A DNA stretch of 64,000 bases from NCBI GenBank assembly GCA_010909165.1, contig MU008155.1:1488001-1552000 (forward strand). Reading direction: 5' to 3'. Position 1 is the stretch's first letter. Every line of letters starts with the position of its first letter. Origin of the DNA: Anthoceros angustus (Eukaryota > Plantae > Anthocerotophyta). Positions 579 through 58,819 of this stretch are shown here, piece by piece. Below the pieces are notes generated by a model. It saw nothing but the letters and a program-made list of their open reading frames with translations. It had not been told where the DNA came from and did no database searches. Made by a program: the position numbers and the translations under genes.

Positions 579-580
579 TT

Positions 581-31900: not shown

Positions 31901-32728
31901 ACAGGCTGGGGAATAGCAGCAGAGCCGCAACTGATATTCAACCTATACAGATCGTGATCTAAAATACCTTTGAAGACACATGTATCCGGTATGTCTCCTC
32001 AGAGAAGGAGCAAGTGTTAGAATCAAAGACGCATGCGTATAAAGGTATGGAGGAGCTGGCTCATGGACATGAGATTTTTAGCCATACTTGGGACATACAA
32101 GACATCACTCAACTTAAGGTGTATGCCGTCCTGCAGCCTAAATATGCAAGTACCTCTGCCATCAATGTGCAAACTGGTTGTACTTTGCTCGTCTCCGAGT
32201 AGCACCTTGTCACTAACATGACCAAGGTTAAGGGTAGTAAACAACTCCCTGTCCTTGCAGATATGAGTCGTGGCTCCGGAATCCATGTAGCAGCTGCCAT
32301 CATCATTCAAGGAACTGGACAAGCACGCAGTAAGAATCTTAACTGGCGCCTTTGTTTCTCCAGAGTTCTTTTCCTTGACAGCAGAGTTTGCCTTGTCACT
32401 GTAGCTCACCCTTCTTTCTTGGCATTCTCTTGCCCAATGGCCAGGGGTGCCACACCAGTGATCCTGGTCTCTTAGTTGAACTGCTGGATGAATCAGTGCG
32501 CCCAGAAGAGCCTCCAGTCCCTGGTTACTTCCCTTTCCTTGCGAGAATTCCACATTGCTAACACGCTCGCCTTATTCTTAGGAACATGACCAGAGAGGGT
32601 GCGAGCCTGTTCTTCCTGGTAGAGAGCGCCAATGATGTCCTCAACAGTGGGGGCAGCAGTGGCGACAGCTCCAGCAGCAGCAGGCTTGACAGGGCCATTC
32701 TGGGTTGTGACGAAATTCTGATATGAGG
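28990..32728 (-). mobile_element. Ty1-copia, 3' part (gag C-terminus, protease, integrase, RT, RNase H, PPT)
   Basis: YMDSGATTHIC, LWHARLGH, YTPQQNGVSE, YKARLVARGF, LALYVDD, GFTDADW, TKHIEVQHHYIRD. PPT complement CCCCCTCT at about 29010. Confidence 0.93.
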
Positions 32729-32754
32729 AACAAGGTCTCCTAAGACCTGGAGAC
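32729..32754 (+). repeat. Left TIR (17 bp perfect, 23/26 bp extended)
   Basis: AACAAGGTCTCCTAAGA-CCT-GGAGAC, preceded by GAGG at 32725-32728. Confidence 0.9.
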
Positions 32755-35076
32755 ACACCCCTCTTTTTAGAGACAGAGGTCGAAATGACCAAATTTTACA
32801 TTTGAAATCAAATCAAATCGTGATTTCGTGGGTTTTCGAACCTGGTCAAAAACACACATCGCAGATAACCAGGGTTTTCATAACACCATTTCTAGCTTTA
32901 TCATGCCATTTGATCTTGCAAATAATGGTCCTCGGTTGGATCAAGTTTGAAAATACCGCGTTTTGCACTTTCAAGGACACTTTTCCAAAATCGGTTAGTC
33001 TTTCAAAATCGCCAAGTTTGTGACGCTTTTGAATATATGTACTAAGGGTCAAAGTCCAGAGACTAATGTTGTGGATACATTTCATTTCCTTCACATGCCC
33101 CTCATGTCCGGACATCCCGACGGTGTCTTTAAATATGTGGCAACGTGAAAGTTCAAGTTCAATATGTCTCTACATGTCACTATACATAATACAACAAATG
33201 CATCAACACATGTCATTTGGTATCCAAGTGGTGAATTAGATGTATAATTTAGCCAAATGTAAACTAACTAATCGCCTTCTACGCATTTGCCATCCGAAAT
33301 ACACGACACAAGGCGAGCTTAAAACCCCAACACATCACTAGACCAGACAGTAGGAGCCAGTGATTTACTTCACTTATAAAAAGGGGATAGCTTAAACACC
33401 GCCAAGTCTGTCATGAGCAAGAAAGTCGAGGCGAAGAAAGCAGTTGGCCAAAACCCGGATGTCCGGTGAGCACCAGCCCACACAATGCCCATATTGACCA
33501 TGCTTTAAACGATGTACCCCACGTTAAAGACCAAAGTGTGTGTAAAGGATTCAACAAAAGCACTATTCGATTGAGTGAGCATCATTGCGAAACCAAAACC
33601 AATAGTGCTCATTCCTAGGCTAGTCTCAGTACACTCTATGCTGAATGCACCACACAAGAAACCAACACTAGCGGCGGTCAAACCGGATGTGCCATTTAGC
33701 ACTGCATCAACACCATCAAATATCCGCAAGAGAACACAACCACAAGCAGATGGCGAAACATCGATTCTGATCTCGAAGGCGAAACCATACTTGCCATCCT
33801 CACTCGGGCTCAGCCTTCACGGTCGCTCCCTCCACTGCTGCCAAGGCCTTCGCGGCTGTTTCTGCTGCGACCATCACCAGGGCTAGCTCCCTCTGCCTCC
33901 TTCTCGCGGGCCATACGTCGTCTTCGGCATCCAACTCCTCTGTAGACAACTCCCGCATCTCCGGCTTCACTGCCAAATATGGTCTGAATCTTCGTAGCTC
34001 CCTTTCAGCTGTCTTCACCTCCTCCCCGGCAAGTGAGAGGTCACGGGTTATATCCCTTGGCTTTCCACCCTCATCCCCTCGGGAAGGGTCCACACCCCTA
34101 GCGGCTCCCTTAAGGCCACCACACCCACCTCCCCTTGGAACCAACAACAGGCTTGGGGTGAGGAAAAGCAGGTGCCATGGGCGGATCGCTTCCAGCGACA
34201 TTGCCTCGCGTGTTGGACCCCTGAGGCCCCAGAGGAGGTCTTCCTCCTAGCCCTCTTGACTGCGATGTCGAGATGTCACCCGTGGGGGTGACTGTAGCCG
34301 CCTCGTTCTCATCGCAATCGTGGAGAACTAGCACACAAAGGCGGGTGCCACAAGTCCGAGGTTAGTAGCCGGCCGGCTGCTGCACCAGCCAGGCGAAGCG
34401 AGCACCAGGCGAGCGGCGGCGCCAGCAGCACCGGCCAGGCGAAGCCTTTTATGTTCCAATCTCCGATAGCGCCGCAAATGGCGGTCCTCCTCAACCAACA
34501 CGCACCTCGCCACCCAGGCCACCACGCCCGCTCACCCCGGTGGCACTCGTGAGCGCCAGATCGCCAACCACGGCGCGGGCTCTTGGAGCGTGATGGAAAA
34601 TAAAAGAAGAGTGAGGGCAGAGAGTACCGGCCGGAGGAGGGTTTACGTCTCTCCCCATTCCTTCCCATCCTACATACAATTGTCGAGAAGCAGCCACGCA
34701 GCCGAAAAAAGCAGTACACGGGCCATACACCGACAAGTGTGAAACCTTACAAAAACATGATCGTGTTGTGCCGGATGTCCGGTGGAAGCCATAGAGACTC
34801 AACCACATTGCCAACACTCCAAAAGAGGAGCACACATCCTAATAAAACAAACCACCTTCACATAACTAGGAAATCACGTCTGACCTCGCTCTCTCAACAT
34901 CAAAATTAATTCTAGGTGGGTTAGGATCGCTCCTCGCGAGTCCACACCGCCATCAAGTCCACCAAATAATCACAGATGCATCGGAGGATTCAATGTTGTC
35001 CAGTCTTAGAATCAATCCGCTCATCACCGGTTTCATCACCATCAACAGGAGGAAGCCGGTAGCTTCCTCACTCTAC

Positions 35077-38000
35077 TCAGTCAAAGACCTTCCTCTTCAA
35101 CATATCCATGGTGTTTTTGCTTAAAGTCCTGTTCCTCGTCAACACAAAATCGTAACCCATGATCGTGGTCTCCAAAAGCTTGATGGCTTGGACATGTTTC
35201 TTCAAAGGATTCCGGCGCCTACCTTTCCTGTGACATGCTGGTGGGGTACTCGGCACCCATTCCTCTGAGTACCTACCCTCAAGTGCATTAGGGTTTTCTG
35301 TGCGCCACCAGTGGATTTGTGCTAGCGGGTCAGCAGCTTCATGGTCCACCTCCACAACCTTGCCTAGCGGAAGGGCCCTCGGGGTCATCTGCGGCTGGAC
35401 CGCAATCATCATGCCCGCTTGGATCTCGATAATAGATCCTCGGCTTGTTGTTCCAACGTTCCGCCTAGCGGCGATCCTGCGGGCACCGTATAAATCTCGG
35501 TCTGTCCAAATATTCGTCTTGCTAGTGCATCCACCACTACTTGTCCGAAACATCACGGAGGTTCTTGAGCATGCGCTTCCGGTTATACCATGTCCATGCT
35601 GGTTTCCAATGGACGAAGATGACTGGCGCTACTAAACCCGCTATTGCCAATTGCTCCTCCCAAAACCATCCCACCAAGATAGTAGCGCATTGAAGATTTG
35701 TGGAAGTTCTTAACATTGTCTGTCTTCCACTCCAGCCATAGCCACGCCGACATACATGTGGATGCTCCTTGCTCCTTCTGCCCTCACATGCAAGTGGTAC
35801 CGGTGGAGCCGCAACAATCTCCCTCTCGCACTCCATCCCGTAATGAACACCACCATCGGGGTCCAGTGCAGTGGAAAATTGCTTGCACCTCAAAGACCGC
35901 CACAAACTCATGACTAGGCAACTCCTCCAGTGACCTTAAATTGATGTTGAAAAGCGTGGTTGTGTAGACATGCGTTGCGGGGAGAACCTCGGGCGCCATA
36001 AATATTGCTTAAAATCGCACCTCCTTCATGAGATGGACCTTGGTAGGAGTATAAGCCCTCCAAGCAAGCAATCAACTCCGGCAATGTGTATGCCTCTTTC
36101 AAGTTCAAGACAACTGTAAAACGGAAAACATTTGATCAATCGATCATGGGTATGGCCAACAATGAGAAACCCCACTTTAACCTTCTTAAAATACCAATGG
36201 ACACCAACATCGCGCCCACCTCCACGGTTCTTGTTACAGCAGTATTGTCCATCCGGTAAAGAGTTTGCAATTGCCCTCCCACAAATTAATCACATGCGGA
36301 TTACGCAATTGTGCCGTTAGGATCATTCCGAATATTGGGGTAGCTCGGTACACATAAGTGCGCATGAATTTGTTGAACACCAAAACCCCAACCACATGGA
36401 GAGATTAGCGGCTATCCACATCTTTGGGCACTCTACGGAAATGAGGCAACTCGGTTTTTCGTCCATACCATCTATCGCAATCCCTATGTACTTGGTCGGT
36501 TGAGCCATACACTTCCGCGATGCGCCATTTTCCTCCGCTCCATCTTGTTGATCCGGTGATAATTGAGGAGTTCTCTGTTTATCTCGCACATACAAGGGCC
36601 ACCATCGGTACACCGCGCAACAAGCAAGTGTTCTGCTGTGTAAAGTCATCGTGCCAAACCCTAAGTCTCCTAAGGCCATAGGGTTTGCACTCTACCGATT
36701 GCGGCCATCCAATCACCGGACATCCGGTGCTTACGATGATAAGGTAGAGGGATTCTCGGTTGTACCTTGCTCTCTCGTTCCGGCGTTTTTATTTTAGCTT
36801 TTAACTTCTCACAGACGATGAGACGGAGTGGTTGGATCTTAATTTTGACACAGTGCCGTATCCACAACTTGCGAAATAGTCTAACATACATGCAATCGCT
36901 CTTGCCTGTTGTCTAGCATACTCAATATAAATCTCCTCCTTCGTGAATGTCAGGCGTTAAAGACTTCCCTATTGGGTAGCCTTTCCACATTTCCTTTGAA
37001 AACAAATCCATCCACATTACACAGTAGACCATACGGTAGGTATTTTTCCGGCACAGGCTCAGCTCGTCCCCTTCAGTACGGGTGCATTCCGTCGGTGCCC
37101 CAATGCAAAACACACGGCAAAATGCCCTCACACACACCGAAACCTTTCCGTGTGGTAGCTTGTTCAACCATCCGGTCCACAGTCATCTTCTTGATCACAT
37201 CAATCGTCCGCAAATGCTGTTCTGCTCCCCTTACTCATCGAAAAAAAGGCCACGCGACAGGCTTTTAGCCTGCAATGTCCCAACTTTCCTATGCACTTTC
37301 TCCCACAAGCCTCCTCAGTGCACGCACATAGCCGCCTACGATGCTTGCCAAAACATTGTCCACCTTATTCCTTGCGGCATGGTTCTTGGTGGAACACATA
37401 ACCCCATCCATAGTGCAACTCCAACCCCTCGACTTGGGATTAGCAGGAGGCGGATTTCGCAGTGCGGAGGCCTCGTCGCCTCCTCTCCAAACAAAGGCAA
37501 TCGGATCTCGTACCACATTTGGTCTCCCCGCCTTCCACTCCCGTAACCTCCTTCACCCACTCGCAAACTCCAAACCAAAATCAACAATGCCATGGACCTT
37601 CTCACCACACCGGCGACTCAAAGAACACTCTGCTTCGATTCCTATTTTGGCCAGCGGTGAAACACAACGTTGAAAATACTCCTGCGACCCACATGGATCT
37701 GTTGTAGGCGCCACCTTGTCTCCCTCTGGCCGGGACACACCGCTTGGCCGGATTTGGATCTGGGCAAAACATCCTCGCCAACTTCTTCGCACCCGGACTT
37801 GAACAAGCCGGTAAATGGTACTGGCGCAGTGCCGAGGCGGGCCAAGAGGATATCGGGGAGGGATATCGAGGCGCCGCCTCTTTCACGGCGGCGGCACGAG
37901 CTACCGCCGATCCACATGGTCTGCAATTTCTTCGATCGCGCGCTCGTTCGTGTCCAGATCGAACAAAAACAAGTCTCCATCGCTTGCGACCTCGTCCGCT

Positions 38001-38277
38001 ATACCACCGCAGGGTGTCTGTCAAATCGATGTGCCCAGGTCTTCGACTACGGGCAGACATTCACCGGACGTCCGCGGTTCCCTTGGTTGTCCACTCAGCG
38101 CTGCCGCCAAGTCCACGATGTCGGACTCGGACACATGCCCGAGATCTTCATCGTGATCACTAGTCCGTTCACCAAATCAAAGAACTCTTCCTCGAGGTCA
38201 CGCCATTGTGCGCTACCAAAGAGTAGAAGAAAGTGCTGCTCACAATGTGCTCGGCGAAGGCAGCGTAGCTAGACATG
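35077..38277 (-). pseudogene. Sola-like (DUF7869-type) DDD/E transposase, frameshifted
   Basis: Acidic N-terminus, VCVRAFCRVFCI, FRKLW..HCVKI...C, KYIGIAIDGMD, MDN, VGFLIVGHTHD-IDQMFS-FTVVL, and a C-terminal beta-barrel-like segment (GMMIAV...LGKVVEV...IHWW). Start approximate. Confidence 0.75.
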
Positions 38278-40299
38278 TTCAAACTTGTATCCGCTCTCGT
38301 GGCCCGCTCGTAATCAATTATGACGATTGGCGGATGTCCGAATTGCGGCTCTGAGATCCTGGCGGTCAAGTCTCGTTAATTGCCTTAGATTGCAAGGATC
38401 GAGGAGCGAGGTTATGCAAAGGCGAAACATGTTTAGCCGATGGCAAAACATGGAATATTCTCATAAATATGCTTTACTACTTGTTTTGCCGGATGTGCCT
38501 TTGGGCGGCGAATGAAGGCTAAACTTGGCGGATCGAGCATTGGATGATTTCCCATGCGGGGAGTGGAATTGCGAATTGCTGACGATGCCGGCGTCTCTTG
38601 CACATCGTGACCCCACATAGTCATACTACCTTCCTCCTGCTGGAAGACCGATTTTGGCGCCAACGAGTGAGATGGTGGATATATTGAGCGAGAGGGACAA
38701 AGCGATGATTTGTCTCTTATCCCTCGTATTCGACCGCGGAATCGGAGTGTCTTTCGAATTGCGTGGTTTCATTGAAGGTCAACACCGCTCCAACCTCACA
38801 GCCATCCGTGTTTCACGAAGAACATACCGGGGTCCGGTTGTTGATGTCGCCGCCTTTGACAATCCTTAATGCTTGCGATCAATTATGTGCTTCCCTCATG
38901 TTATACTTGCTAATATGTCCAATGATCTCCTTGCTACAATGGGTTGTTTGGCAGATGGGCCCTCAAAGCAGGAGCAAAGGCGCCAAACCCATGGAGCGCT
39001 AGCGGGGAGAAAACGGACCGGGCAGCCTTTGATTCGCAGGGCCCCATGGAGACTGACCGGTCCGGATCCGGCATCAAGATGCATACCGACACCGTGAACC
39101 CGCGCCCCGACAACGTCCCCAACTAGAGCAACTTTCCAAAGTCCTTACAAGCAAGCGGACGACATGATCGGAATGATGCTTGAGACAACTCTCCTTTCGA
39201 TATATCCGGGGAGTTGGATCGCAACAACGTCTGCGGGGCGGTTGGTATTCATACCTCTTGGGTGCTGGACAAGCCTTCAAAGCCCTCATGTCTTGGCTTT
39301 TGTTCACGCATTGTGGAGAAGGATGACCAAGGGTATGTCATTTTTGTGTACATCAAGACAAACCGACAAACGACCCCAATGTCGTCCAGTCTACTCACCG
39401 TGATCAAGAATTTTGACATTTTGCACCGGTAGGAAGCGTCGTGAAGAAGCTGCTGCAGGCTTGCGAAAAATGATGGGCACGAGTTTTCCACAAGGTAATG
39501 CACCAAGTATGTTTAGAAGGCGTTAGGCTGCGGTACTCTGTCAGTTCGGAACCCGTCGCGCGATGGGTGGTAGTGGATCATCGGCCGGTGAAAGCGGCAT
39601 AGACGGCATCGACTTGACGGAATTCAAAGCATCCAAGCGGTGCATCCAAGCCACACCAGTGCATCCGCCAGAAGCAACAGAGCCGCATCGGAAGCATCTT
39701 CAAGATGGCGGAATCATTTCACAAGGGCATCTGCAGGAAAGCAACCATGCTTCTCGATGCAACCGAGCGATGCATCCGAGGGAAGCATCCCCGCAATGCC
39801 ATGGTGGGGAAACATCCTAGCACCGCATCCGTTGGTCCAATACAACCAATTGCAAATGATCCAGAATATCGGTTTGAGGCCGATCGTCTGGTGTGCACCG
39901 GACGTCCGGGTTTTGACTCGGAGACTTTGTGATTCTTCAAGGCTCTGAGGAAGCTAGCTTGACCGGGTATGACGAGGATATGGAGAACGACGGTGAGGAC
40001 ACAGAGGACTATGGATGGCGTCCTACCCGGGGAGGACGAAGATGATCAAGACGGTGAAGATGGCTCATGGGAAGGAGACTGCGAGGCTAATGGCGATGAG
40101 CATGACCTCGAGGTCCTGTCCCTGCATGATTGCTCGCGGTCTTGAGGCTTGTCCTGGATCGCAGGAGGGTGCAGCAGCCGCCCGTGGGGAATGCATCAAA
40201 GGCGACGGAGGAGGCGGAGATGGCAAACCAATCGATGAGAAGGCGAGGCCAGCAGTAGTGGCAAAGCCAAGAAGGCAAGGGCAAACGAGAAGCCTGCAA

Positions 40300-41000
40300 T
40301 TGCAATTGGGAAAGAGTCGGAGGAGGAGGATGAACCGCTTGTGTTTGTGGAGATTGCCAAGGATAGCGCGGTGGCTGAGACGATGAGCTTCGCCATCAAA
40401 GCGTATGCAAGCCGGGTGGAAAGGGACGTATCGCAATGAAGAGTGTGGAGTCTACTCAGCGCCAATCAAGTGTTGCGGACCCAGGAATTGTGTCGAGCCG
40501 GTGAGGAAGTTGGATCTCGCATGGGTAGAGGCTTTGATGCAAAAGATGAAGCATTGTCCCCTGGGTGGGCGGTGTGTTGCCCATGGTTGTGGTTGTGGAT
40601 CCGTCACAATGTGCTACAAGAGAATTTCACGTTAAGGTGGACGGGGGATTACATTTTTTCGTCTTAGGGGAAACCATTCCTTCCGCAAGGTCCATTGTCT
40701 CATCTACCGTGGAAGAGTACAAGTGGATGGATGCATATGTGCTCACTGGACTCGAGGACGAGATGAGGATCGTAGCCACGGACCACAACACCATAGCGTG
40801 CCAGAAGACATTTACCTTCATGGACCGTGTGCGTTACATCGTGAGTTCCTCGGAGGTCAAGGGTTTGAAGTGTGACGTGGATTGGAAGCTAGATGTGTAT
40901 GCACGATTAGGCGGGATCCCCAAGTGGGATGCAGCCAAGCATAAGGTGCGATATCACCGTGGACAATAGGACCGGATTATTGTGTGGCTAAAGTTGACGA
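40300..41000 (+). pseudogene. ParB/Sulfiredoxin-like domain
   Basis: PVRKLDLAWVEALMQKMKH...LPMVVVVDP...HFFVLG(G)NHS...AYVLTGLED.EMRIVATDHN, read across 1-bp frameshifts. Confidence 0.7.
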
Positions 41001-41529
41001 AGAAGTGTGGAGGTATGTGGAGATTTTCAGAAGTGGGAATGTAAGCAACTAGCGGATAGATGTTTTGACTAGCAGCGGTGAAGGCTACAAGGAAGTCGAG
41101 GAAATCTGCAGCGAGAGATCTTGTGGTCATCGATGTGAAGGAATCGGATGTTCTGTGAGAGTGTGGAAGTGTTTTCGGGGTATCGAGCACTCGGCAGAGC
41201 AACAACAATTTGAAGGCAGCATGCATGAAGGTTTTGGCTGGAGAAATGAGCTTGAAGCAAATGCAAGAGTGGGTGGAGAAGGCCAAAAATTGAACCTCAT
41301 TCACATCACCCTTGCGAAGAACATTGTGAGACTTTCCAGGTTAGGGATCGATACCCTCAATACGACGGTGGAGCAGATCGAACTTTCAACGCATTCAAAA
41401 ATATGGTAAGTGACATGGCAAGCAAGCCACCGTGCATGTGATATGTACTAAGCAAATATGCTTGTTTGCGCATGGTTTGTTTCCACGTCGGCTTGGAACT
41501 TTGCCATTGCGCTGCGGCCAATGCCATCT

Positions 41530-42560
41530 CGAGTGGAGTGCACTCACGACAATTTCAAGGAACATGTTTTGAAAGCCAAAGCTTGGAGGATAATGGCGGA
41601 TGGCGACAATTGTTGGAGGCCTCGATCAAAAGTTACAGACTTTCGGGGATGACGCCGGAGAACCCGGTATAGTATGTATGTCAACATCGCGGATGGCCCG
41701 TTCTAGAACCCGTCCGTTTGCCATGATTCCTTGGACTTGCCCCGGGGTTGAATTTGGATCTAGGGAGTATGACACGCGGTTCACTCGTCGAATTTGAGAA
41801 GATCATAATGACATTCCGGGCATCACAATCGAGGTTTTTCGAGTCGTGGTATTCCATTCGCACGATGATATGTCCATGGTTCGTGAAGTTTTGCTTGCGC
41901 ATGTAAAGGTGGTGTCACGTCTACGGCACAAAACTAATGTGGCATCCTCCAGATAAGTCAGATGATGCGGTGATTACATCACCACGGCGCAGCTCCTTAA
42001 AGCGGGATTGTTTGCCTCAACATTTCTCCCTCGATTACATCGGTGATGTTGACTTGCCGGGTTGAATTTGGATCGAACTCAGGTATGACACGCTTCACTC
42101 GTGAATTTGAAGATCATAATGACATTCCAGCATCCTAGCGTGAGGTTTTTACGTGGTATTCCATTCCGATGATATGTCCATGGTTCGGAAGTTTTGATGA
42201 TGTAAAGGTGGTGTCCGTCATGGCACAAAACTAATGTGATCCTAGATTGATGATGGTGATTACATCACCACGGCGCGTTGCGAATGTGATTTCTCCTCGA
42301 TGCATCGATGTTATGAATAGCAGGGTTGACTTGCTTTCAGAAGATGGAACATAAGCTATGTTACAACACGAGATGATAGGGTTTCACCGTAAGCCCATTA
42401 GATTGTTGAGGAAGTTGATTGAGCGTATACAATGGAAGGCGAGTGGATCCTAGATGTGGGAGCTCGTTGGGTGGCGACAAGTCGGCATGTCATTTCGATA
42501 GGCGTAGATCCCAGCGGTGCAATTCATGGTTTGCGGCTCAATCGATGGACAAGCGGCGAG
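41530..42560 (+). pseudogene. Beta-class N6-adenine/N4-cytosine DNA methyltransferase domain (N6_N4_Mtase-like)
   Basis: Motif IV-like VNIADGPF (41680-41703), VVVFHS, WHKTN, then motif X-I FHRKPIRLLRKLIER-(Y)TMEGEWILDVGA (42382-42463). The order is that of beta-class amino-MTases. Confidence 0.8.
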
Positions 42561-43988
42561 GAGGAGGAGGTGGGAGGCGTTGGCGTGCGCACAAGGCGCG
42601 CATGGTGAACAACATCGCGGTGGAGAGGTGGGCGAAGGCGTGAGACAAGGCGCGATGCACAATTGGGCGTGTGAGATCCACTTTCGTGTTGGACAGTCGA
42701 CAAGTGCGAGGTTAGTGAGAAAGACGCAGACATTGGCGAGATGGGCCAAGAGGCTTTTCTGCAACATTGGGGCGATGGATCGGTCCATCCCTTGAGACGC
42801 CGACGAGAAGTATGATGGCGATTGACTCTCCAGACAACCAACGGCCAAAACAAACTTGTAGCATCCGAATGCAGGATTGGGAGAGAGTTGTGAGGGCTAG
42901 GAAATCTGCAGACGACCAGTTGGGTTAACGTTGCTTTTGTGTTGGACTCAAAGCTTTGAGACAACTTGCGATGCGACCACATGTCTTGCACAACCGGGAC
43001 CCGGTGATAAAGGCTGTTCGGTGTCCATTGTGTCCGATTGATCCAAGCTCGGCTTGCGAACCATTTTTGTTCACGATGGTAGGGCAAGGGAGAAACATGG
43101 TCGGCGCAACAACATTGCATCAATGAGCATCCTCATGCATATCCTTCAATCGAACACCGGAAGGGATTGAGAACTCGTCACGCCGCCCCAATCGCCATTT
43201 CGAGCCTTTGCCGTCACGCGCCGCATTGGTGTGCATGAGTTGGCCCCTGCGAGGCGGCGTAGGGAAGGCGTGGTAGCACCCGATTCCGAGCCCATGTGCG
43301 TGAAGTGTCATGGCCGAGACCTTATCGGAATTGCAAATCGCATATCGACCATGGCGGGCGCTTATACCGGACCAGCGAATAGCGAAATGCATTGCTATAA
43401 ATTGGTCGAACACGGCCACACGGGTCATTGTGGTGGAAAGCCTTCGCGGTGATTAGTCGCGGACATGATGAATGCATTCATCATATGCATGTAAAGGACG
43501 ATGTCACGATGCGTAAATACGACCGCATTGAACCCGCAATTGTAAATAGATTGCCGCGGTGTGTCCGAAGGCCGGTATGAAGTTGATTTCATCCAATTTC
43601 GGTAGTGCAACCTCGGGCTGCACCGGCTAAAATGGATTCATACCATTCGCACATTCACCGGATGTCCGGGTCATACAAGTCTGATCAATGTCGCTCTTTT
43701 TCGGTCGGTCGGACCCTTAAACTCATTTTGTGGACCTTTTTAATATCCATTTTATGCGGCCTATAAATTGCATATGTATCTTAAAGAATTGGCGAAATTC
43801 ATGAGAACTTGGAGGTGTAGACCATGTGAAGGTCTTATTACCTTAAAACCATTGAAATGCATGGTTTCATTCTTAAAGTCACATCTTTATCATGCAATTT
43901 TTTTAAAAAATTCTGCAAATTATGAAATTCAAGCTTTTTTGTTTCCAGGTCCCAAATTTCACCCCCTCAAAACCAGAGACGAGGAGCC

Positions 43989-44014
43989 GTCTCCCACTCT
44001 TAGGAGACCTTGTT
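43989..44014 (-). repeat. Right TIR
   Basis: GTCTCC-CAC-TCTTAGGAGACCTTGTT followed by GAGG at 44015-44018. Confidence 0.9.
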
Positions 44015-44541
44015 GAGGTGGGAGACTGATAAGGAGCTGGGATACAGCTTCGACTTCAGGCATCTTATTTCCAGTCAGTGACGTGATCACGCAGATGTCG
44101 GAACTTGCTGGTATGGACAGCAATCTTCTCTCCCTCCTTCATTTTCACGGCGTAAAATTCCATTCTTATAGCAGATAGGGACATCATGTTAGTAGAATGA
44201 TAAGTGGTTTCTAACTGATGCCATATCGCCTCTGCTGCGTCCAAGAACTCAACATCAGGCACAAGATCTCCATCCAGGCCATTGATAAGGAGAGCCATGG
44301 CAATTCCATTGTGATGTAGCCACTTGGCATAGTCGTCAGGGTCTGTGGTCGGATCAGGTTTCTTGAACGTGCCATCCAGGGCTGGCCAGAATCCACGAGC
44401 CGACATGATGGCTTTCATGCGGACTCTCCAAATAAGGTAACCACTTCCCTTGAAACGATCCTTCTCTTTTAACTCAGAAGTAAAAGTTAAGGCAGGGTGT
44501 GCAGGGCTTGGAGCAGCCATCACAGATGAAGGGGAAAACAA
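44015..44541 (-). pseudogene. gag: Copia gag N-terminal part (continues at 32728)
   Basis: FKGSGYLIWRVRMKAIM...AEAIWHQLETTY...MKEGE...QLLISLP joins to SYQNFVTTQ across the insertion. Confidence 0.88.
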
Positions 44542-45914: not shown

Positions 45915-46769
45915 TTTCCATAGGAAGAAGTATGCTATACAATGTTTATGACAAGTGGGGAACAAGAGAAGGAGACTTTGTGAGATATATGAAGATCCAA
46001 TGGGGAGAGACTATAGATATGTGGTTGTGTAATGCTAGAATGTTGCCTCATGCAGGGCAACATAGAATGGTTACTACACCAATTAGTGAATGTGGTTGTC
46101 TGACATTATTGGTACCAGCACTTCACGAAAGAAGGGGGATACAGGCATAACAAGAAGCTGGAGGCTTTGGAACAAAGCGCTATGAAGGGTGCAAAAACTA
46201 TTTCTATGAGCTCAGTTATTTTACCGCATGCCGAAAATGTTGCTGCACATTGTTTGTCTTCATCGACCCCTAACTTGTGGTATGTGATTGAACATGTTTA
46301 TTCTCCTTGGGCTACATGCTCATGTCCAATGGGGAACAAAGGTTTCATCTGCAAGCATGTGGTGAAAGTTCAACAACTCCTTGGCATACACAAGGATGGT
46401 GCAGCAGCAGCTAGGCAAAATGGAAGAACAAATGGAGCGTATGTTGCTGAAAGTAGTGATACCAACAACTTGGCTATGGCTTTTTGGATGCAGGATCAAG
46501 AAGCTCCACACATTGTATTGCCTAGTAACCCCTTGGTGGCACCAATATGTAAGACACAATTGGAGATGGCAAAAGAAAAACGGTTGGATTTCACTAAAAC
46601 GGCATGTGCTAAAGTAAATGATACCGCATTTGAGCGTTCAGATTTAGCTTTTGGGATAGCCTGCATTATGGAGCAAACTCAGCGGGGGCGATTAGTAGCG
46701 CGGTCGAAGAACCTCAACGGAAACAAGTGTTGGAAACTTTTGGTGAGAATGAGGGCACGAACAGACTGA
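45915..46769 (+). pseudogene. SWIM zinc-finger MULE-like transposase, 3' fragment
   Basis: YMKIQWGETIDMW...LPHAGQ and the SWIM motif ATCSCPMGNKGFICKHV. Confidence 0.75.
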
Positions 46770-47065: not shown

Positions 47066-47872
47066 TTAAGCACTAAACCACATTGTAAGAGGTGCCCATT
47101 CCTACCACCACCGATCATGTCGATCGAACATGCTTCGCCGCAGCCGCCACCTTCTCGGACCGAACCCAAAGTTGCACATGTTTGTGAAGGATCGCATGTG
47201 CTTCATGCCATACTGGGTTAGCGAGCCACACTCACTCTCGTAAGCCCGCACCTGCATTCATGCATCCAGACATCCAGATTAACCTCAAATCTTTATGAAA
47301 GAGAAAACGAAACATTACGAAGACTCCACCGCCGGCCACTTACCACGGCCTTGAGGCACTGCCAGTCGTCGACAAGAGGCAAGGCTGGCTTTCGTAATGC
47401 CGCCAACATTTCAGGCCCCCACTCAGACCCGAAGACCAGCTTCCCCATCAAGTTGACACTGGAGTCGATGTGTGCATGCTGAGACATCATTCTTGCCATG
47501 TTCTGAGCAGCTTTCACTTTGTTCGTCGGCCCTTTTGGTGAATGCTTATACTGGAAAATCAGTCGCAAAGGGGACAAGGAAGAGAAGGATCGATGTCAGA
47601 CATGCAAAAACCAATTACCCTTGTCCCTTCCAAAGTTCACTGCAAATCCACATGAAGAGTAATGATGCTTGTACCTTGTGCCAATAATACAGCAAATCAA
47701 CATGATGTTGATTCACAGATGACTCCCAATGATTGTTCCAAATGCCCATGTCCACAAGTTAGACTCACGTGCTCAGATTCAAAGGGTCATAGCCTAAGAA
47801 GAGATAATTTGTCGACAGCATCACATGTGAGCCAGATCTGTAAGTGTTGTCATTCGAGGTCCTCTTCTTCAC
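47066..47872 (-). pseudogene. VPE: Legumain/vacuolar processing enzyme, 3' exons only
   Basis: VKKRTSNDNTYRSGSHVM; HIDSSVNLMGKLVFG...PLVDDWQCLK; [20 protein letters not shown]. No catalytic 5' exons were found. Confidence 0.85.
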
Positions 47873-49902: not shown

Positions 49903-51312
49903 ATGGCTTCAGCTCCAGCAGTCCTGTCCTTCAAGCTTAATTCCGGCGAACTAATCCCAGCCATCGGGCTAGGGATGGGTCTTGACGTTGGAGGAACCGC
50001 GGATGCGGAGGCTGTGGCTCAGGGTATCTTGTCTGCCATTGAGGTAACAACGGAACCATCCAACCACTCTCTTCTTAGCATCCGGAAATCGTCTGCTGCA
50101 AATGACTTGACGGTTAGTTTGTGTCTGCAAGGCGGGGAGATTTGCTGAATTGATGATGTGACTGTGGGAGATGGGGTTTGGCTGTTCCAAGGTTGGGTAC
50201 AGGCACATCGACACTGCAGCCATGTACGGTACTGAGGCAGGAATCGGTCAAGGCTTAGCTGAAGCCTTCCGCAGGGGCCTTGTGAAGCGGGAGGATGTTT
50301 TTGTGACCACAAAACTTCACATGAGGGACTTCGAGCCAGAGGATGCTCGAATAGCCTTGAACACATCTCTTGCGTAAGCTTCCAAGTGAATGTTCTACAA
50401 GTTCCCGTTCATGATATGACGCTTTTCCTAATTTGTTGACTGGGTTGGCAGCAAGCTTCAGCTGGATTATGTGGACCTTTACTTGATGCATTGGCCACTG
50501 AAGCTCAAAAAGGAGTTCCAATTTCCACTGAAAACAGAGCACCTTCCCCCAGACAATGACCTGCTTCCGACTTGGAGAGCCTTAGAGAGCTTTCAGCGGG
50601 AAGGGCTGGTGAAATCCATTGGAGTGTCCAATTTCACTGTGGAAAAGCTTGAGGCGTTGCATCCCCATGTCAGCATCGTACCAGCTGTGAACCAGGTCCA
50701 CACGCTTGATGGCCCCCCCCCCTCCATCTGCTATTATTTATGCAGTCCTGAAGGCTTATGCTTCGCTAGCTAGCGTTCCTAGATTCCTGACCCTCTCAGG
50801 TGCTGACATGAAGGTTGAGCTCAGCACAAACTGGCAGCAGAGGAAGCTGAAGGAGTACTGCGACCGAAAGGGGATTCACCTCACTGGCTACTCCCCGCTT
50901 GGTGCACCTGGAAAGCGGTACGGAAAATCCGCACTGGACAACCCTGTTGTCAAGGAGCTGGCAGAAAAGCATCACAAGACTCCCGCTCAGGTATAACGCA
51001 TGTCAATTACTGTAACCAGGTGCCTGGCATGGTTTGGTCATGTGACGTACCTTTCACTAATCGGTTTCGCTTGTGTAATTTGATCAGGTGGTTCTGCGGT
51101 GGGCTGTGACATATGGGGTCTCTGTGGTGCCCCATAGCTCCAAGAAGCACAGGCTGATTGAAAACTTTGGCATCTTCGACTGGAATTTGTCAGACGAAGA
51201 TCTTGATAGAATAGCCAGCTTGGAGCAGAAACGAATGCTGTTGGGGGACTTTTTTCTCCACCCGGACGGTCCCTACAAGACGCTTGAGCAACTGTGGGAT
51301 GGGGACCTCTGA
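49903..51312 (+). CDS. Aldo-keto reductase (plant AKR4-like), 5 exons
   Basis: [58 protein letters not shown]. The D-Y-K-H tetrad is intact and introns are GT-AG. Confidence 0.95.
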
Positions 51313-53010: not shown

Positions 53011-53200
53011 GCCCTTCTCGCCAGAAGAATGGGAGGAAGCTTCTGTAGAACTACGAGTGCTGTGTGACGTTAGGTTCCTTTTTGTCTCTAGTCAATGTTT
53101 TGCCAACGATGCCGAGATGTTGACTCATCGAGTATTATATCACTGGGGCTGAAGCGGGACTTTGTGCCGAGGGAAAGAGCCGCCAGGAGCAAAAAAGAAG

Positions 53201-55261
53201 ATGGATGGGTCACAATTGCACGGGCTGCTTCCATCTGCCACAACACTTCTTTTCTTGGCCTGCGCCGGGCTGGTGATATGGGTGTTTGCGAGGACCGTGG
53301 TGACTCCATGGAGGGAGTGGATTTTCTACAGGAAGCAGGGAATCAAGGGCCCCCCCTTCAGACCGCTCCTGGGCAACTTTCTGGAGCTGCGCAAAATCCG
53401 AGGAGCACCCCGTCCTCCCAGTTCCATCGACCACACTCGGTTCGTGGAGGCATCCAGCCCGTACCTGATTCACTGGGCTAACACATATGCCCCAGGTGTC
53501 CTCGAGCTTGCAGACTCCAAACCGAGCAATCAGCACAGACTGTCCGTGGTTGGATGATCGTGTTGTGAAGCTTACATGTTTGCCGTTCATGCGCAGGACA
53601 ACAGCGCTTGCTGTTTCAGACTCTGAACACTACGAATGTCATCCTGTGGGATGCCAGTTTGGCGAGGGACTTTCTCTCAAAACACAGTCTCTACAAGAAG
53701 TCTGCCCTGTCAAAGCTAGTGACAGAGAAATTAACAGGGAAGGGTCTCGTGGTGCTGGACACAGATGAGTGGGCACTGCACCGCAAAATTCTGAACCCCG
53801 GCTTCCGCCTCCACTTCCTGAAGGTACTTTGCAAGTGCCTGCTTCTCCTGAGTGCCAAGTTGGTATGATGGAGAAGCACTGACTGTTTGCAGGGGAACTT
53901 GTGCATATTTGCCCTTGCCCATTCTCTACTGGTTTCAGGGATTTCATGACTACATGACAGAGGCAGGCAAGGAGCTGGTGCAGGACTGGTTGCAAGAAGT
54001 GCATAAAGGGGATGGCTCTGCAGAGCTCCAGATCAGCGCCGGAGTCAGGAAGGCATCTCTGGACATCATAGCGCGGGCGGTATTTGGTGCAAATGTGGCT
54101 GGCAGCATACCTGTGAGCATTGCTCGGAAGGTCTTCGAGACTCTTCAGGAACGCGTGGACGTTATAGTGCGTAACGTATTCACTTTGAGTACCTTGGTCC
54201 CAGCACTCCGGTAAAGACGGTCAAGACTTCGAAGAATGTATCAATTCATTCTACATTTCAAGATTCTGCAGGGACATCTCTGTGGATTCAGACTCATGAC
54301 CATCGCTGGCTGGTGCTGCAGACTGTTCTTAGAGACAAAGGAAGAGAAGAAGTCAGCCAGAGATAATCGCTTCATCGATGACCTACTCAAGGAGATTGTG
54401 GATGCTCGTATCAAAGCTGTTGAGTCGGCTTACACAAAGGACAGCCCAGCCCTTGACAGCGAAGAGAACCATGGCGGCCATGATCTGCTGGGGCTCATGG
54501 TGGACGCCATGTTGAGGGGCAGCAAGACCATGGCCAGGGCACAGGTGCTGGAAGAGTGTCGGACCCTTTTTGTGGCTGGACAGGCCACAACAGCCGCTCT
54601 TGTTACATGGACTCTGCTGATGCTTGCTCATCACCCAGACTGGCAGCACAAGGTCCGGGAGGAAGTGATACAAGTCACTGGCAACACTGGCGTACTTGAG
54701 GCCCACAGCATGGACAAGCTCCGCATTGTAAGTTGCGCTTGAAAACAATGGACCCATCATCCCCGTGGCCACGTGCAGATTCTCTGTGCTTACCTGGTAG
54801 GATCCTGTCTGACATGGACTTGGACAACGCAGATGGGAATGGTCCTGAACGAGGTGCTCCGGCTGTTCCCCCCAGCAAGTACGGTGCCACGGGAGGCTGT
54901 TGTAAGGCACAAGATTGGCGACCTCGAGATCTTGCCTGGGACCGACGTCACCTTCCACTTAGCCTTGATCCATGGATGCGAAAAGTACTGGGAGGATCCT
55001 TGTGCATTCAAGCCGGAGCGGTTCGAACGCGGAATCGCTGCAGCCGCTCTGAACAAAGCCGATGCTTTCTTCCCTTTCAGTGGAGGTGGTCGAGTCTGCA
55101 TTGGACAGAACTTCGCTTTGTTGGCAGCCAAGAATCTTGTGGCCTCTGTTGTGCATCGGTTCAGCCTTCGTGTGTCCCCCAATTATCAGCATATCATTAG
55201 CGATGGTTCCCTTTCAGGCAGCAGCTTTGTGTGTCTGGTGGTACAAGAGTTGAAGAGTTGA
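53201..55261 (+). CDS. Cytochrome P450, CYP72-clan-like (copy A)
   Basis: GIKGPPFRPLLGN, WALHRKILNPGF, ECRTLFVAGQATT, EVLRLFPP, KPERF and the heme motif FSGGGRVCIGQNFA. Multi-exon; some splice sites unresolved. Confidence 0.92.
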
Positions 55262-57480
55262 TTGTCTGGCCAGGTCGTATCATGAACGTGAACGTCAATT
55301 CATCTCTGCAGCAAAGTGCATAAATCAGAGGACATCTGTTGTCAGAGCCTGCTCTGATCGTGAAAGAATGGAGGCTACGCTTCCAACTGAAGACAAGTTT
55401 CTCTAATGCTGAGGAGGTCATACAAAATTCCTACATGCATCTGTACGTTGCAACGGCGTGAGGCGAGTGGGACTTTTTACTTTAGGAAAGGGTGTTCTCA
55501 CGCAGCCATGGATACATGGATGCCTTAGTTGTTCTTTCTTTTAGAGACGTTTCCGGGGCTTTATAGATGAGGAGATACAGCCCAGCCCCGTCTCAATAGT
55601 TCTTTCCATTCATAATGCACGCAACGTTTGCTTCTCTACACAGAGTACGTGGGACTTTCAAGCTTCCACGGATTAGGGCCACGGTACAATGGCAATTGAA
55701 AACAAACATCCACAGCAGAGGTCAGGTAGGTCAGTTTCAGGAGCGACGGTGAAGATTGTGTCTACTTGCTACGCATAAACTCGCAATGTGGTGGCAGCTT
55801 CTTCCAGCCGCACCAACGGATTGCAGGAACTGAAAGTTGAAGCTGTTTTTGAGACTTGTAAATTCTTGGAAAGCAGGAATGTTGGATAGCAATTTTGAGT
55901 TGCCCAGCGATCCAAAGAGCGGGCTAAGCTTAAGCATGCAGGTATTGCGTTTGTGGTTCTGCCCCTGGAAATGAGGTGGTAAGTGGCTGGCGGGAAGAAG
56001 TGCACCACGGGCATGGTGCTGACAAGGATCAGCAGCCGAAGAAAGGGGGAAAACGCATCCAGGACCAATACCGTGGACATCGGTACCGAAGTTTTCGAGG
56101 GTCTGAGCGCTTCTTGTTGCTAGCAGCCCAACCGCAGATTGTTGCTCCCAGTTATTGGCCAGTGAGACTGCTGTCTAACCTCAAGGGAAGCATGTCCAAG
56201 TTATTGAGAACTTTCGGATGTTGGGAACGTCCAGATTCTGAAGCCATTTAAATGTCTTAATTGCCACTGCAGTGTGCAGCGAAGTACAGAAGTCGAGAGG
56301 AATGCACGATGCTGGTCCTCTGTCTCTTTTAGGTACCTACTTACAAGTTGAGCACAGCTTGCCAGAGGACGGCTTCACAAATCAATCAGCTCATCCTGCT
56401 CCCGCTTTCAAACAAGAGGCTCCTACACCTCCATCACGTAGGCTTTTAAAACATCTAAGAACTGCAGCTGGAAACGATTGTGGGCAAGAAATGATGCCCT
56501 GCATCGTCACTGTCTTGTGTTGCAGGATATTCTTAGAGACAAAGGAAGAGAAGAAGTCAGCCAGAGACGATCGCTTCATCGATGACCTACTCTAGGAGAT
56601 TGTGGATGCTCGCATCAAAGCTGTTGAGTCAGCTTACACAGGCAGCCCAGCACGATCTGCCGGGGCTCATGGTGGACGCCATGTTGAGGCGAGACCATGA
56701 CCAGGGTACAGGTGCTGCACGAGCGTCGGGCCCTTTTGAGAGGAGGCGTACTTGAGGCCCACAGCATGGACAAGCTCCGCATTGTAAACAATGGACCCAT
56801 CATTCCTGTGGCCATGTGCAGATTCTAGTAGGATCCTGTCTGACATGTTCTTGAACAACGCAGATGGAATGGTCCTGAACGAGGTGCTCCGGCTGTTACC
56901 TCCTGCAAGCACGGTGCCACGGGAGGCTGTTGTAAGGCACAAGATTGGCGGCCTCAGATTTTGCTTGGGACCGACGTCACCTTCTTCATAGCGTTGATGC
57001 ATGTGTGAGAAGCATTGGGACGATCCTCTTGCATTCAAGCCGGAACGGTTCCAGCACGGAATCGCTGCAGTCCATCGACAGCAGTTCCCACCAGGGGTTT
57101 ACTGGTTGACAGAATGGACCCAACAGGTGTGCTTCTGGAAGCACATCTACTGGGCCCACTCTGTCAGCAAGTTCCATCTCCTGTACGAACTTGGGACGCA
57201 ACCTGGGACCCATTGCGGCTATTATCTCGAGACGTCCAACATTTCGGCAGCGTCGACACATTGGGTGGGACATAGAACCAATCGTCACCAGCACATTCGT
57301 CGTTCCGTATTACAACCCACAACACAAGCGAAGCTTCCCTGTTTCTTCTAGCGAGCCGGGAGTACAAGAGCACAGCATTACGTGGACCTCGTAAACTCAC
57401 AGTTTGGATTTACTCCAAGCACGTGTTTGTCTCGTCCACAACACTTCCCTCCGGACTGTTCAGGTTTTATATCCTCCTGT
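54690..57480 (+). repeat. Segmental duplication unit, repeated at about 60320-63130
   Basis: P450 3' end, flank, LRR-like piece and P450 pseudogene recur near-identically about 5.6 kb downstream. Confidence 0.9.
56526..57075 (+). pseudogene. P450 3'-half pseudogene with internal deletions
   Basis: In-frame TAG after DDLL; EVLRLLPP and KPERF remain; heme motif absent. Confidence 0.85.
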
Positions 57481-57551
57481 TCTCTGCTCTCTGTGGTGAA
57501 GGTTGAAGTGGAACTCTGTGGTTTCTTGGGCTAGAATTGTATGGGAAGGAG

Positions 57552-58350
57552 ATGGATGGGTCACGGTTGCACGGGCTGCTTCCATCTGAGGGAACACTTC
57601 TCTTCTGGGCCTGCGCCTGGCTGGTGATATGGGTCTTTGTGAGGACCGTGGTGTCTCCATGGAGGCATTGGATTTTCTACCGCAAGCAAGGAATCAAGGG
57701 CCCTCAGTTCAGGCCACTCGTGGGCAACCTTCTGGAACTGCGCAAAATCCGAGCAGCATCCCGTCCTCCCAGTTCCATCGACAAAGAGAAGAGAAGAAGT
57801 CAGCCAGAGACGATCGCTTCATCGATGACCTACTCTAGGAGATTGTGGATGCTCGCATCAAAGCTGTTGAGTCGGCTTACACAAAGGGCAGCCCAGCACG
57901 ATCTGCCGGGGCTCATGGTGGACGCCATGTTGAGGGGCAGCGAGACCATGACCAGGGTACAGGTGCTGCACGAGCGTCAGGCCCTTTTTGAGAGGAGGCG
58001 TACTTGAGGCCCACAGCATGGACAAGCTCCGCATTGTAAACAATGGACCCATCATTCCTGTGGCCATGTGCAGATTCTAGTAGGATCCTGTCTGACATGT
58101 TCTTGAACAACGCAGATGGGAATGGTCCTGAACGAGGTGCTCCGGCTGTTACCTCCTGCAAGCACGGTGCCACGGTAGGCTGTTGTAAGGCACAAGATTG
58201 GCGGCCTCGAGATTTTGCTTGGGACCGACGTCACCTTCTTCATAGCGTTGATGCATGTGTGAGAGAAGCATTGGGACGATCCTCTTGCATTCAAGCCGGA
58301 ACGGTTCCAGCACGGAATCGCTGCAGTGCCCCTGAACAAAGCCGATGCTG
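57552..58350 (+). pseudogene. P450 pseudogene: exon 1 fused directly to the 3'-half pseudogene
   Basis: ...PPSSID joins KEKRRSQ at about 57782. Confidence 0.85.
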
Positions 58351-58819
58351 TCAACTTGTGGGTTTACTTGCTGACAGAATGGACCCAACAGGTGTGCTTC
58401 TGGAAGCACATCTACTGGGCCCACTCTGTCAGCAAGTTCCATCTCCCTGTACGAACTTGGGACGCAACCTGGGACCCATTGCGGCTATTATCTCGAGACG
58501 TCCAACATTTCGGCAGCGTCGACACACATTGGGTGGGACATAGAACCAATCGTCACCAGCACATTCGTCGTTCCGTATTACAACCCACAACACAAGCGAA
58601 GCTTCCCTGTTTCTTCTAGCGAGCCGGGAGTACAAGAGCACAGCATTACGTGGACCTCGTAAACTCACAGTTTGGATTTACTCCAAGCACGTGTTTGTCT
58701 CGTCCACAACACTTCCCTCCGGACTGTTCAGGTTTTATATCCTCCTGTTCTCTGCTCTCTGTGGTGAAGGTTGAAGTGGAACTCTGTGGTTTCTTGGGCT
58801 AGAATTGTATGGGAAGGAG

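What the first reader, a model, noticed from the sequence alone, without database searches (positions are those of the whole stretch)
41530..42560. Beta-class methyltransferase with a variant catalytic motif (IADGPF)
Seen: motif IV-like VNIADGPF, followed by VVVFHS and WHKTN, then KPIRLLRKLIER-TMEGEWILDVGA (motif X then SAM-binding motif I). Known: this IV-then-X/I order defines beta-class enzymes; DPPY usually indicates 6mA and SPPY 4mC. Inference: D-G-P-F could be an active variant, an altered specificity or a dead enzyme. A TAG follows immediately, which may be decay or a consensus error.
Basis: partly seen in the sequence, partly recalled or inferred. Interest (0 to 1): 0.85.

Follow-up and report, generated by a model that had tools for sequence, protein, structure and literature searches.

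The report
Plant transposon's own methylase-like gene
The odd motif that was flagged is an off-frame misreading of gap-riddled sequence; the stretch belongs to a gene inside an 11-kb plant jumping element whose protein is predicted to fold like a bacterial DNA methylase, carries a different unusual active-site motif shared by its relatives, and likely acts on the element's own DNA.

Summary
The peptides are present but lie in three reading frames, one of them in a duplicated copy. IADGPF is not motif IV. Frameshift-aware alignment to unnamed homologues places it at the strand before motif IV, read off-frame. The TAG is off-frame too. The true motif IV is DLPRG (41734-41748). It is the same in 3 of 3 independent homologues and aligns to DLPYG/DPPYN in 50 of 50 phage enzymes, so Arg replaces the base-stacking aromatic. 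A homologue model matches beta-class methyltransferases (Z 20). The gene has an intron and an upstream, possibly ParB-like domain. It lies head-to-head with a DUF7869-type transposase inside an 11,286-bp DNA transposon (32729-44014; perfect 17-bp terminal repeats, 4-bp target duplication). The transposon is inserted in a Copia gag of a plant genome and carries dispersed palindromes. This is the layout of Ectocarpus Sola1-1_Ec32. About 41 frame breaks with only one stop point to sequencing error rather than decay, but this is not proven. Activity is untested: about 45% an active DNA methylase, 35% a SAM-binding pseudo-enzyme. Verdict: a variant of a recently described kind of transposon accessory gene; interest 0.42.

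The parts
32725..32728 (.). Left target-site duplication (GAGG)
   Evidence: same 4 bases follow the right terminal repeat
32729..32745 (+). Left terminal inverted repeat, 17 bp perfect (imperfect match runs to about 32786, 73% over 64 columns)
   Evidence: 1 of 200 shuffles of 28000-50000 reached 17 bp
34950..37200 (-). Frameshifted transposase-like gene (IDGMD and VGHTH motifs); limits approximate
   Evidence: Pfam DUF7869 E 1.7e-4, 21.7 bits, below the 26-bit cut-off, on 36029-36289; motifs by eye; assignment to Sola is recalled, not tested
37700..40270 (+). Unidentified protein-like fragments and an acidic low-complexity stretch; 5' part of the same gene or a third gene
   Evidence: seen by eye; no Pfam hit; unresolved
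40274..40910 (+). N-terminal domain, possibly ParB/Srx-like (GNHS at 40669-40680; homologues GGNHS)
   Evidence: 105 of 201 aligned residues identical to P0002; ESM Atlas lead only
40865..41387 (+). Helical linker region
   Evidence: 94 of 170 identical to P0011
41406..41530 (+). Intron (GTAAGT donor at 41406; 3' end approximate)
   Evidence: unaligned insert at the point where P0001/P0010 diverge from their continuous cluster-mates P0007/P0011
41554..42033 (+). Methyltransferase domain, first part (motif III strand, IV, VI, VII, VIII)
   Evidence: 80 of 154 identical to P0011
41680..41706 (+).
41734..41748 (+). True motif IV, DLPRG
   Evidence: identical in P0005/P0011, P0006, P0012; aligns to phage DLPYG/DPPYG
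42051..42276 (+). Degraded tandem copy of 41734-41990, likely an assembly artefact
   Evidence: 5 mismatches against 23 gap events
42344..42540 (+). Methyltransferase domain, second part (motifs X, I, II), broken by frameshifts
   Evidence: 31 of 64 identical to P0012
33108..43669 (.). Dispersed palindromes CCGGA-YR-TCCGG: exact at 33455, 34771, 36716, 39898, 43658; one mismatch at 33108, 38064 (and a weak one at 33953)
   Evidence: 8 of 9 window matches lie inside the element; 5 exact against at most 3 for any such palindrome in 300 shuffles
43998..44014 (-). Right terminal inverted repeat
44015..44018 (.). Right target-site duplication (GAGG)
44068..44541 (-). Host Copia gag, 5' half (outside the element)
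   Evidence: PF14223 E 1.4e-19, profile positions 1-112 of 172
32026..32571 (-). Host Copia gag zinc knuckle and protease region (outside the element)
   Evidence: PF00098 and PF22936

Best explanation
This is the methyltransferase-fold half of an intron-containing accessory gene inside an 11.3-kb cut-and-paste transposon of a plant, and its protein likely binds the element's dispersed palindromes and likely still uses SAM to methylate the element's own DNA through a DLPRG active site. Shown: the element's ends, target duplication and insertion into a Copia gag; the head-to-head transposase-like gene; homology of 40274-42540 to unnamed proteins at about 52% identity; and the position and conservation of DLPRG. 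Predicted from a homologue: the beta-class fold. Inferred: (1) the N-terminal domain is ParB-like and, with the helical linker, recognises CCGGA-YR-TCCGG; (2) the retained Asp-x-Pro would still hold an exocyclic amine (adenine more likely than cytosine, as Asp comes first), and Arg would take the place of the stacking Tyr/Phe; (3) the mark, or the binding itself, would help the element stay transcribed or mobile; (4) most frame breaks in this copy are sequencing errors. My odds: identity as a transposon accessory gene with this fold 0.9; breaks mostly sequencing error 0.65; active DNA methylase 0.45.
For: Element: 17/17 terminal repeats, GAGG on both sides, gag halves in order on either side. 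Fold: P0006 hits PF01555 at E 4.4e-13. A two-sequence profile of homologues alone finds beta-class enzymes as the 8 best of 16 PDB hits. The model of P0006 (pLDDT 63, pTM 0.63) matches M.BceJIV (Z 20.0, rmsd 3.4, 201 aligned), M.MboIIA, CcrM, M.RsrI and M.PvuII. SAM-pocket positions are kept in 2 of 2 homologues that cover them: motif III Asp, motif X SPYQKP against phage HPTQKP, motif I DGCSGSGS against DNCMGSGT/DPCAGSGS, motif II acid. DLPRG is invariant in 3 of 3 independent homologues that are only 36-57% identical, which implies selection. FHSPDD at motif VI is a second family-specific conserved patch. P0007 and P0011 run continuously across the intron position, as spliced transcripts would (source runs not given, so this is inferred). 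Error pattern: 32 deletions, 9 insertions and 1 stop over about 590 codons, with DNA 7-15% shorter than the homologues, against about 11 stops expected and none of 1000 simulations giving 1 or fewer. Duplicate copy: 5 mismatches to 23 gap events, against 157 to 19 for P450 paralogues in the same window. All 6 listed X1 contig pieces inside the element are 4-17 bases longer than the window (8 of 147 pieces were shown). Precedent: Ectocarpus Sola1-1_Ec32 (PMC12477816, passages and supplement row).
Against: No activity data. The last motif-IV residue is [YFW] and stacks on the target base in this class (PMC4738411, passage; PMC10406627, passage), so Arg may mean loss of base methylation. The one X1 contig over the motif keeps the frame breaks upstream of it and lacks 2 bases at 41743, so it does not confirm the Arg codon in this copy and reads DLPG in that frame. 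X1's library type is not on record, so real small-deletion decay is not excluded. ParB is only a lead: no Pfam ParB_N hit, Atlas rank 24 at 0.92 with ParB_N on 35% of members, and the motif is GGNHS, lacking the GxxR arginine that nucleotide binding needs (PMC12704722, passages). The beta-class model was built from an alignment with 50 phage beta-class rows among 53, so its fold match is partly circular. Palindrome binding is untested. Other palindromes reach 4-5 copies in the larger flanks, which contain duplicated segments, and the motif was picked after looking. Only three independent homologues cover motif IV, all unnamed. The DUF7869 score is below its cut-off.
Confidence: 0.45

Rival explanations
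1. Same element and gene, but the domain is a pseudo-methyltransferase. It binds SAM and DNA or dimerises, transfers no methyl group, and acts as a scaffold that protects or organises the element.
For: The stacking aromatic is lost in 3 of 3 homologues and kept in 50 of 50 phage rows. The upstream domain also lacks the GxxR arginine. DIRS1 methyltransferase domains are described as likely inactive (PMC4738411, passage). Several earlier scan notes report eroded motifs in similar genes (unchecked).
Against: The catalytic Asp, the second Pro and motifs X, I, II and III are all kept at 36-57% overall identity. The replacement is an invariant Arg rather than drift.
Confidence: 0.35
2. The domain is an active methyltransferase with a rebuilt pocket that acts on a different acceptor (RNA, protein, or a non-amino position of a base).
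For: Family-specific FHSPDD at motif VI, where phage enzymes have A/S-Q-x-P-F-like residues. A DPPR-type motif IV occurs in uracil-5 RNA methyltransferases (recalled; my paper search found none).
Against: No conserved Cys at motif VI, which those enzymes use (recalled). The fold and motif order are those of DNA amino-methyltransferases, and the gene sits in a DNA transposon.
Confidence: 0.12
3. This copy is a truly decayed pseudogene with real small deletions and a real internal duplication. It does nothing in this genome, whatever the family does. (This can hold together with any of the readings above.)
For: The X1 contig shares the window's sequence over 41700-41729, including the TAG and the frame breaks. 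The Bostrychia paper says most Plavaka copies are degenerate (passage).
Against: 1 stop in about 590 codons, gaps outnumbering mismatches, perfect terminal repeats and target duplication, and three different homopolymer lengths at the same motif in copy 1, copy 2 and X1.
Confidence: 0.35
4. One reading: an enzyme whose catalytic motif is DGPF.
For: The letters are in the sequence.
Against: 0 of 3 homologues have it. The position aligns to the 'gD' strand before motif IV, and DLPRG lies 11 codons further on at the conserved D-x-P column.
Confidence: 0.02

Closest known systems
Sola1-1_Ec32 of Ectocarpus and its ParB-like + N4C/N6A methyltransferase accessory gene (PMC12477816; passages and one supplement row seen, figure and protein sequence not seen)
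   Same: Accessory gene on the strand opposite the transposase; N-terminal ParB-like plus methyltransferase domain; 4-bp target duplication; termini begin AAC (AACCG there, AACAA here).
   Different: Plant rather than brown-algal host; 11.3 kb against 21.5 kb; 17-bp perfect repeat against a 282-bp imperfect one. Motif IV here is DLPRG; the Ectocarpus motif is unknown to me. Direct homology not tested.
Plavaka accessory genes PAG2 (N6-adenine methylase + SET) and PAG3 (ParB-like + 2OG oxygenase) of Bostrychia (10.1101/2025.02.11.637652; passages seen, supplements closed)
   Same: Transposon-borne ParB-like and PF01555 domains; inverted-repeat units proposed as ParB binding sites.
   Different: There the ParB-like and methylase domains are in separate genes and the repeats form tandem arrays. 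Here the two are fused and the palindromes are dispersed 0.3-3.8 kb apart; Tandem Repeats Finder shows no such array.
Beta-class DNA amino-methyltransferases, PF01555 (M.RsrI, M.MboIIA, CcrM, M.BceJIV, M.PvuII; phage DLPYG enzymes; phage ParB-N6_N4 fusions in PMC12704722, passages)
   Same: Motif order III-IV...X-I-II, predicted fold, SAM-pocket residues, catalytic Asp.
   Different: Arg for Tyr/Phe/Trp at motif IV; intron; about 13-22% identity; no restriction partner.
Domesticated eukaryotic 4mC enzymes: Marchantia MpDN4MT1 (TSPPY; 10.1101/2021.02.12.428880, passages) and rotifer N4CMT (SPPY; PMC8885841 and PMC10406627, passages)
   Same: Bacterial-type beta-class domain in a eukaryote.
   Different: Those are host genes with canonical SPPY and shown activity. 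This one is transposon cargo with Asp first and Arg last.

Membership tests
Beta-class amino-methyltransferase (PF01555) | Motif IV lies N-terminal to motifs X and I | tested here: met
   Homologues P0006 and P0012 in one frame; same order in the window across frame breaks
Beta-class amino-methyltransferase (PF01555) | Permuted Rossmann fold | tested here: met
   P0006 model Z 20.0, rmsd 3.4, 201 aligned to M.BceJIV; partly circular, but the homologue-only profile also ranks beta-class enzymes first
Beta-class amino-methyltransferase (PF01555) | Motif IV [DNSH]-P-P-[YFW] with an aromatic last residue | tested here: not met
   DLPRG in the window and 3 of 3 homologues; Y/F in 50 of 50 phage rows
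Beta-class amino-methyltransferase (PF01555) | SAM-binding motifs I, II, III and X | tested here: met
   Kept in 2 of 2 homologues covering them; motif I unreadable in the window copy
Beta-class amino-methyltransferase (PF01555) | Methyl transfer to N6-adenine or N4-cytosine | not testable with these tools
   needs an assay
ParB/Srx fold | Profile or fold match | tested here: inconclusive
   No ParB_N Pfam hit; Atlas lead 0.92; model too poor to search
ParB-CTPase | GxxR arginine in Box II | tested here: not met
   GGNHS in P0001, P0002 and P0007 and GNHS in the window, if this is Box II (definition from PMC12704722)
Cut-and-paste DNA transposon | Terminal inverted repeats and target-site duplication | tested here: met
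   17-bp perfect repeats, 4-bp GAGG duplication, inserted in Copia gag
Sola1 superfamily | 4-bp target duplication, as listed for Sola1-1_Ec32 | tested here: met
   a 4-bp duplication alone is not diagnostic
Sola1 superfamily | Transposase homologous to Sola1 transposases | tested here: inconclusive
Transposon-borne ParB-like + methyltransferase accessory genes | Fusion gene inside the element, opposite strand to the transposase | tested here: met
   P0011 and P0007 overlap and span from the N-terminal domain into the methyltransferase domain; orientation
Transposon-borne ParB-like + methyltransferase accessory genes | Sequence homology to the Ectocarpus protein | not tested

The most novel reading that the evidence does not exclude
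A family of plant DNA transposons encodes an active, sequence-specific DNA adenine methyltransferase that uses arginine instead of the otherwise standard aromatic stacking residue. It is loaded by a ParB-like domain onto parS-like palindromes spread along the element, and it writes 6mA on its own copies as an anti-silencing mark in a lineage thought to have lost host 6mA.
Probability: 0.2. Interest if true: 0.8.

Novelty: new variant of a known kind. Interest (0 to 1): 0.42.

Why it matters
Transposon-borne ParB-methyltransferase genes were proposed in 2025 to bind and mark their own elements, but in the passages I read none was tested. This locus extends the design to a plant element with defined ends. 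It supplies a candidate binding site (CCGGA-YR-TCCGG) and shows a conserved non-aromatic motif IV beside an intact SAM pocket. Together these make the self-marking idea directly testable with one protein and one oligonucleotide. A positive result would show a plant transposon writing its own bacterial-type mark with new active-site chemistry. A negative result would define a widespread pseudo-enzyme. The specific claim handed to me (a DGPF enzyme) is an artefact and has no interest of its own.

Tried and rejected
No whole genome is held, so other copies could not be collected and no within-genome consensus of motif IV exists. Word-indexed searches with window pieces found nothing (0 of 227 and 0 of 662 candidates), and neither did a PDB search with the motif-X piece. 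P0003/P0008/P0009 (Nymphon repeat proteins) were dropped as spurious. Family-pattern scans found no relative in viral contigs, prokaryote genomes or metagenomes. The single metagenome locus L001 is an off-frame VFHSPDD match and was dropped. The N-terminal domain model failed (pLDDT 45.8) and its fold search gave no match at E<=0.001. An attempt to collect ParB sequences for a profile comparison found none. A suspected TET/JBP dioxygenase on the minus strand near 38300-38900 got no Pfam support and was rejected. The short gag pieces next to the element give no Pfam hit on their own (0 of 2). No RNA holder was listed. X1 does not cover 41625-41699, so most of IADGPF could not be compared. No tree was built: the phage set comes from two seeds and cannot name a donor. 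No complex prediction was run. Not found in print by these searches: DUF7869 (0 papers); DPPR + motif IV (0); DLPR + methyltransferase (2, unrelated by title); ParB + methyltransferase + DNA transposons + accessory + alga from 2021 (2 papers, both read in passages). Passages of PMC4455052, PMC5751038 and PMC10294476 gave no Sola terminus definition. Iyer 2011 (ref. 50 of the Ectocarpus paper) and Bao 2009 were not read and may already describe this family. The first of five parts of 10.64898/2026.05.21.726589 concerns DAM enzymes in retrotransposons, a different class.

Full report
Setting. The window is plant DNA. The legumain fragment at 47296-47595 has 14 PDB hits, nearly all named as plant-type vacuolar processing enzymes or asparaginyl endopeptidases/ligases, and the aldo-keto reductase's two best hits include chalcone reductase. 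It is rich in Copia, Gypsy-like, Harbinger and SWIM-bearing elements. No genome is held. The lineage within plants was not determined.

The observation. WHKTN lies in a second, degraded copy of 41734-41990 at 42051-42276. No open fragment hits a methyltransferase in Pfam (0 of 30).

Homologues. A full HMMER search with one frame of 40550-42046 gave 6 hits, of which 5 are genuine (P0003 is a repeat protein). Cluster look-up and a profile search added P0007, P0010-P0013. All genuine ones are unnamed Logan proteins. A frameshift-aware alignment maps them along 40274-42540 at about 52% identity: 105/201, 94/170, 80/154 and 31/64 residues for four segments. The P0012 score is 265 against 33-43 in 6 shuffles. 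P0011 runs in one frame from the end of the N-terminal domain into the methyltransferase domain, so the two are one protein. An insert starting GTAAGT at 41406 sits where P0001 and P0010 diverge from their continuous cluster-mates P0007 and P0011. I read this as an intron, and the continuous forms as spliced transcripts (inferred).

The motif. The conserved D-x-P column is DLPRG at 41734-41748. It is DLPRG in P0005/P0011, P0006 and P0012 (3 of 3 independent sequences). It has Y or F in 50 of 50 phage rows of alignment A8: 37 DLPYG, 8 DIPYN, 2 DLPFG, 2 DPPYN, 1 DIPYG. Those 50 were chosen from 70 dereplicated proteins, out of 125 ORFs from 160 loci seeded by two phage genes. A pattern scan of all 160 loci found Y/F in 155 and no match in 5. 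The class definition is [DNSH]PP[YFW], with the aromatic stacking on the base (PMC4738411, passage). The variant is therefore real, but it is Arg for Tyr, not Gly for Pro. Motifs X, I, II and III are kept in both homologues that cover them. P0006 hits PF01555 (E 4.4e-13). Its model matches beta-class enzymes with Z 16-20, above the METTL3 group at 13-14. The model used a phage-rich alignment, so this match is partly circular.

Are the breaks real? With symmetric penalties there are 32 deletions, 9 insertions and 1 stop in about 590 codons, and the DNA is 7-15% shorter than the homologues. Decay at the 8:1 mismatch-to-gap ratio seen in the window's P450 paralogues would give about 11 stops, and 0 of 1000 simulations gave 1 or fewer. 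The internal duplicate differs by 5 mismatches and 23 gap events. The six listed contig pieces of run X1 inside the element are all 4-17 bases longer than the window (8 of 147 pieces shown). Against this, the X1 contig over 41700-41800 is identical to the window at 41700-41729, keeps the frame breaks, lacks 2 bases at 41743 and has 7 extra after 41758. It therefore does not confirm the Arg codon in this copy. Its library type is not on record. The C/G run at the motif has three different lengths in copy 1, copy 2 and X1, as noisy long reads would give (inference). I put sequencing error at 0.65.

The element. A perfect 17-bp inverted repeat occurs at 32729-32745 and 43998-44014 and nowhere else in the window at up to 3 mismatches. 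It is flanked by GAGG on both sides, and 1 of 200 shuffles reached that length. The 11,286-bp interval splits a Copia gene: the gag 5' half lies at 44068-44541 and the zinc knuckle and protease at 32026-32571, both on the minus strand. The two gag halves are one base out of frame across the site. Inside, a broken minus-strand gene at about 34950-37200 has IDGMD and VGHTH motifs and a DUF7869 hit below cut-off. It lies head-to-head with the methyltransferase gene. The palindrome CCGGA-NN-TCCGG has 9 matches in the window at up to 1 mismatch, 8 of them inside the element (expected 2.1; 0 of 100 shuffles reach 9). The 5 exact copies are all inside, against at most 3 for any comparable palindrome in 300 shuffles of the element. 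Other palindromes reach 4-5 in the larger, partly duplicated flanks. CpG observed/expected is 0.90 in the element, 0.57 in the host Copia, and 0.82 and 0.63 in the left and right flanks. That fits either recent arrival or escape from 5mC and is weak evidence.

The N-terminal domain. The ESM Atlas places P0002 55-237 near unnamed eukaryotic clusters (0.96-0.97), DUF3723 (0.95) and a ParB_N cluster (0.92, family on 35% of members). The strand-GGNH-helix pattern resembles ParB/Srx Box II (recalled) but lacks the GxxR arginine (PMC12704722). Pfam gives no ParB_N hit. It remains a lead.

Mechanism. I favour an accessory protein that binds the dispersed palindromes and still methylates the element's DNA (0.45), because the catalytic Asp and the whole SAM pocket are kept while the changed residue is invariant. 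A SAM-binding pseudo-enzyme (0.35) and a different acceptor (0.12) are the rivals. None is tested.

Comparison. Ectocarpus Sola1-1_Ec32 has a ParB-like plus N4C/N6A methyltransferase gene opposite its transposase, a 4-bp target duplication and AACCG termini (PMC12477816, passages and supplement row). Bostrychia Plavaka elements carry related domains in separate genes beside inverted-repeat arrays (10.1101/2025.02.11.637652, passages; supplements closed). Earlier scan notes, unchecked, report similar genes in other plants and animals, so the design is probably widespread. They led me to these papers and to look for element ends. The locus works like a beta-class methyltransferase fused into a transposon accessory gene, but fails the canonical motif-IV test, so I do not file it as a canonical member. 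My paper searches did not find the DLPR motif or a plant example. Iyer 2011 and unseen supplements could bear on that.

Verdict. Observation partly confirmed; interpretation partly supported; new variant of a known kind; interest 0.42.

Noticed in passing
window 37700-40270: Protein-like plus-strand fragments between the transposase and the N-terminal domain have no Pfam hit; they may be a third accessory gene or the 5' part of the fusion gene.
   Followed up: partly
window 43465-43484: A perfect 20-bp palindrome inside the element, about 0.5 kb from the right end, unrelated to the dispersed motif.
   Followed up: no
window 53195-64000: Tandemly repeated cytochrome P450 gene segments at 94-99% identity, some with stops; real duplication or assembly repeat.
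   Followed up: partly
window 1-1780 and 8521-12979: LTR-like direct repeats differing mainly by gaps (17 mismatches, 45 gap events for 1-813 against 9459-10271), the same error pattern as the methyltransferase region.
   Followed up: partly
window 22097-25867: Harbinger-type pair: Myb/SANT gene and DDE_Tnp_4 transposase with a 294-codon open frame.
   Followed up: no
window 46104-46766: SWIM zinc-finger fragment, covered in part by a high-depth X1 contig; probably a Mutator-like transposase remnant.
   Followed up: no
window 47296-47595 and 50432-50770: Host genes: legumain/vacuolar processing enzyme prodomain and an aldo-keto reductase.
   Followed up: partly
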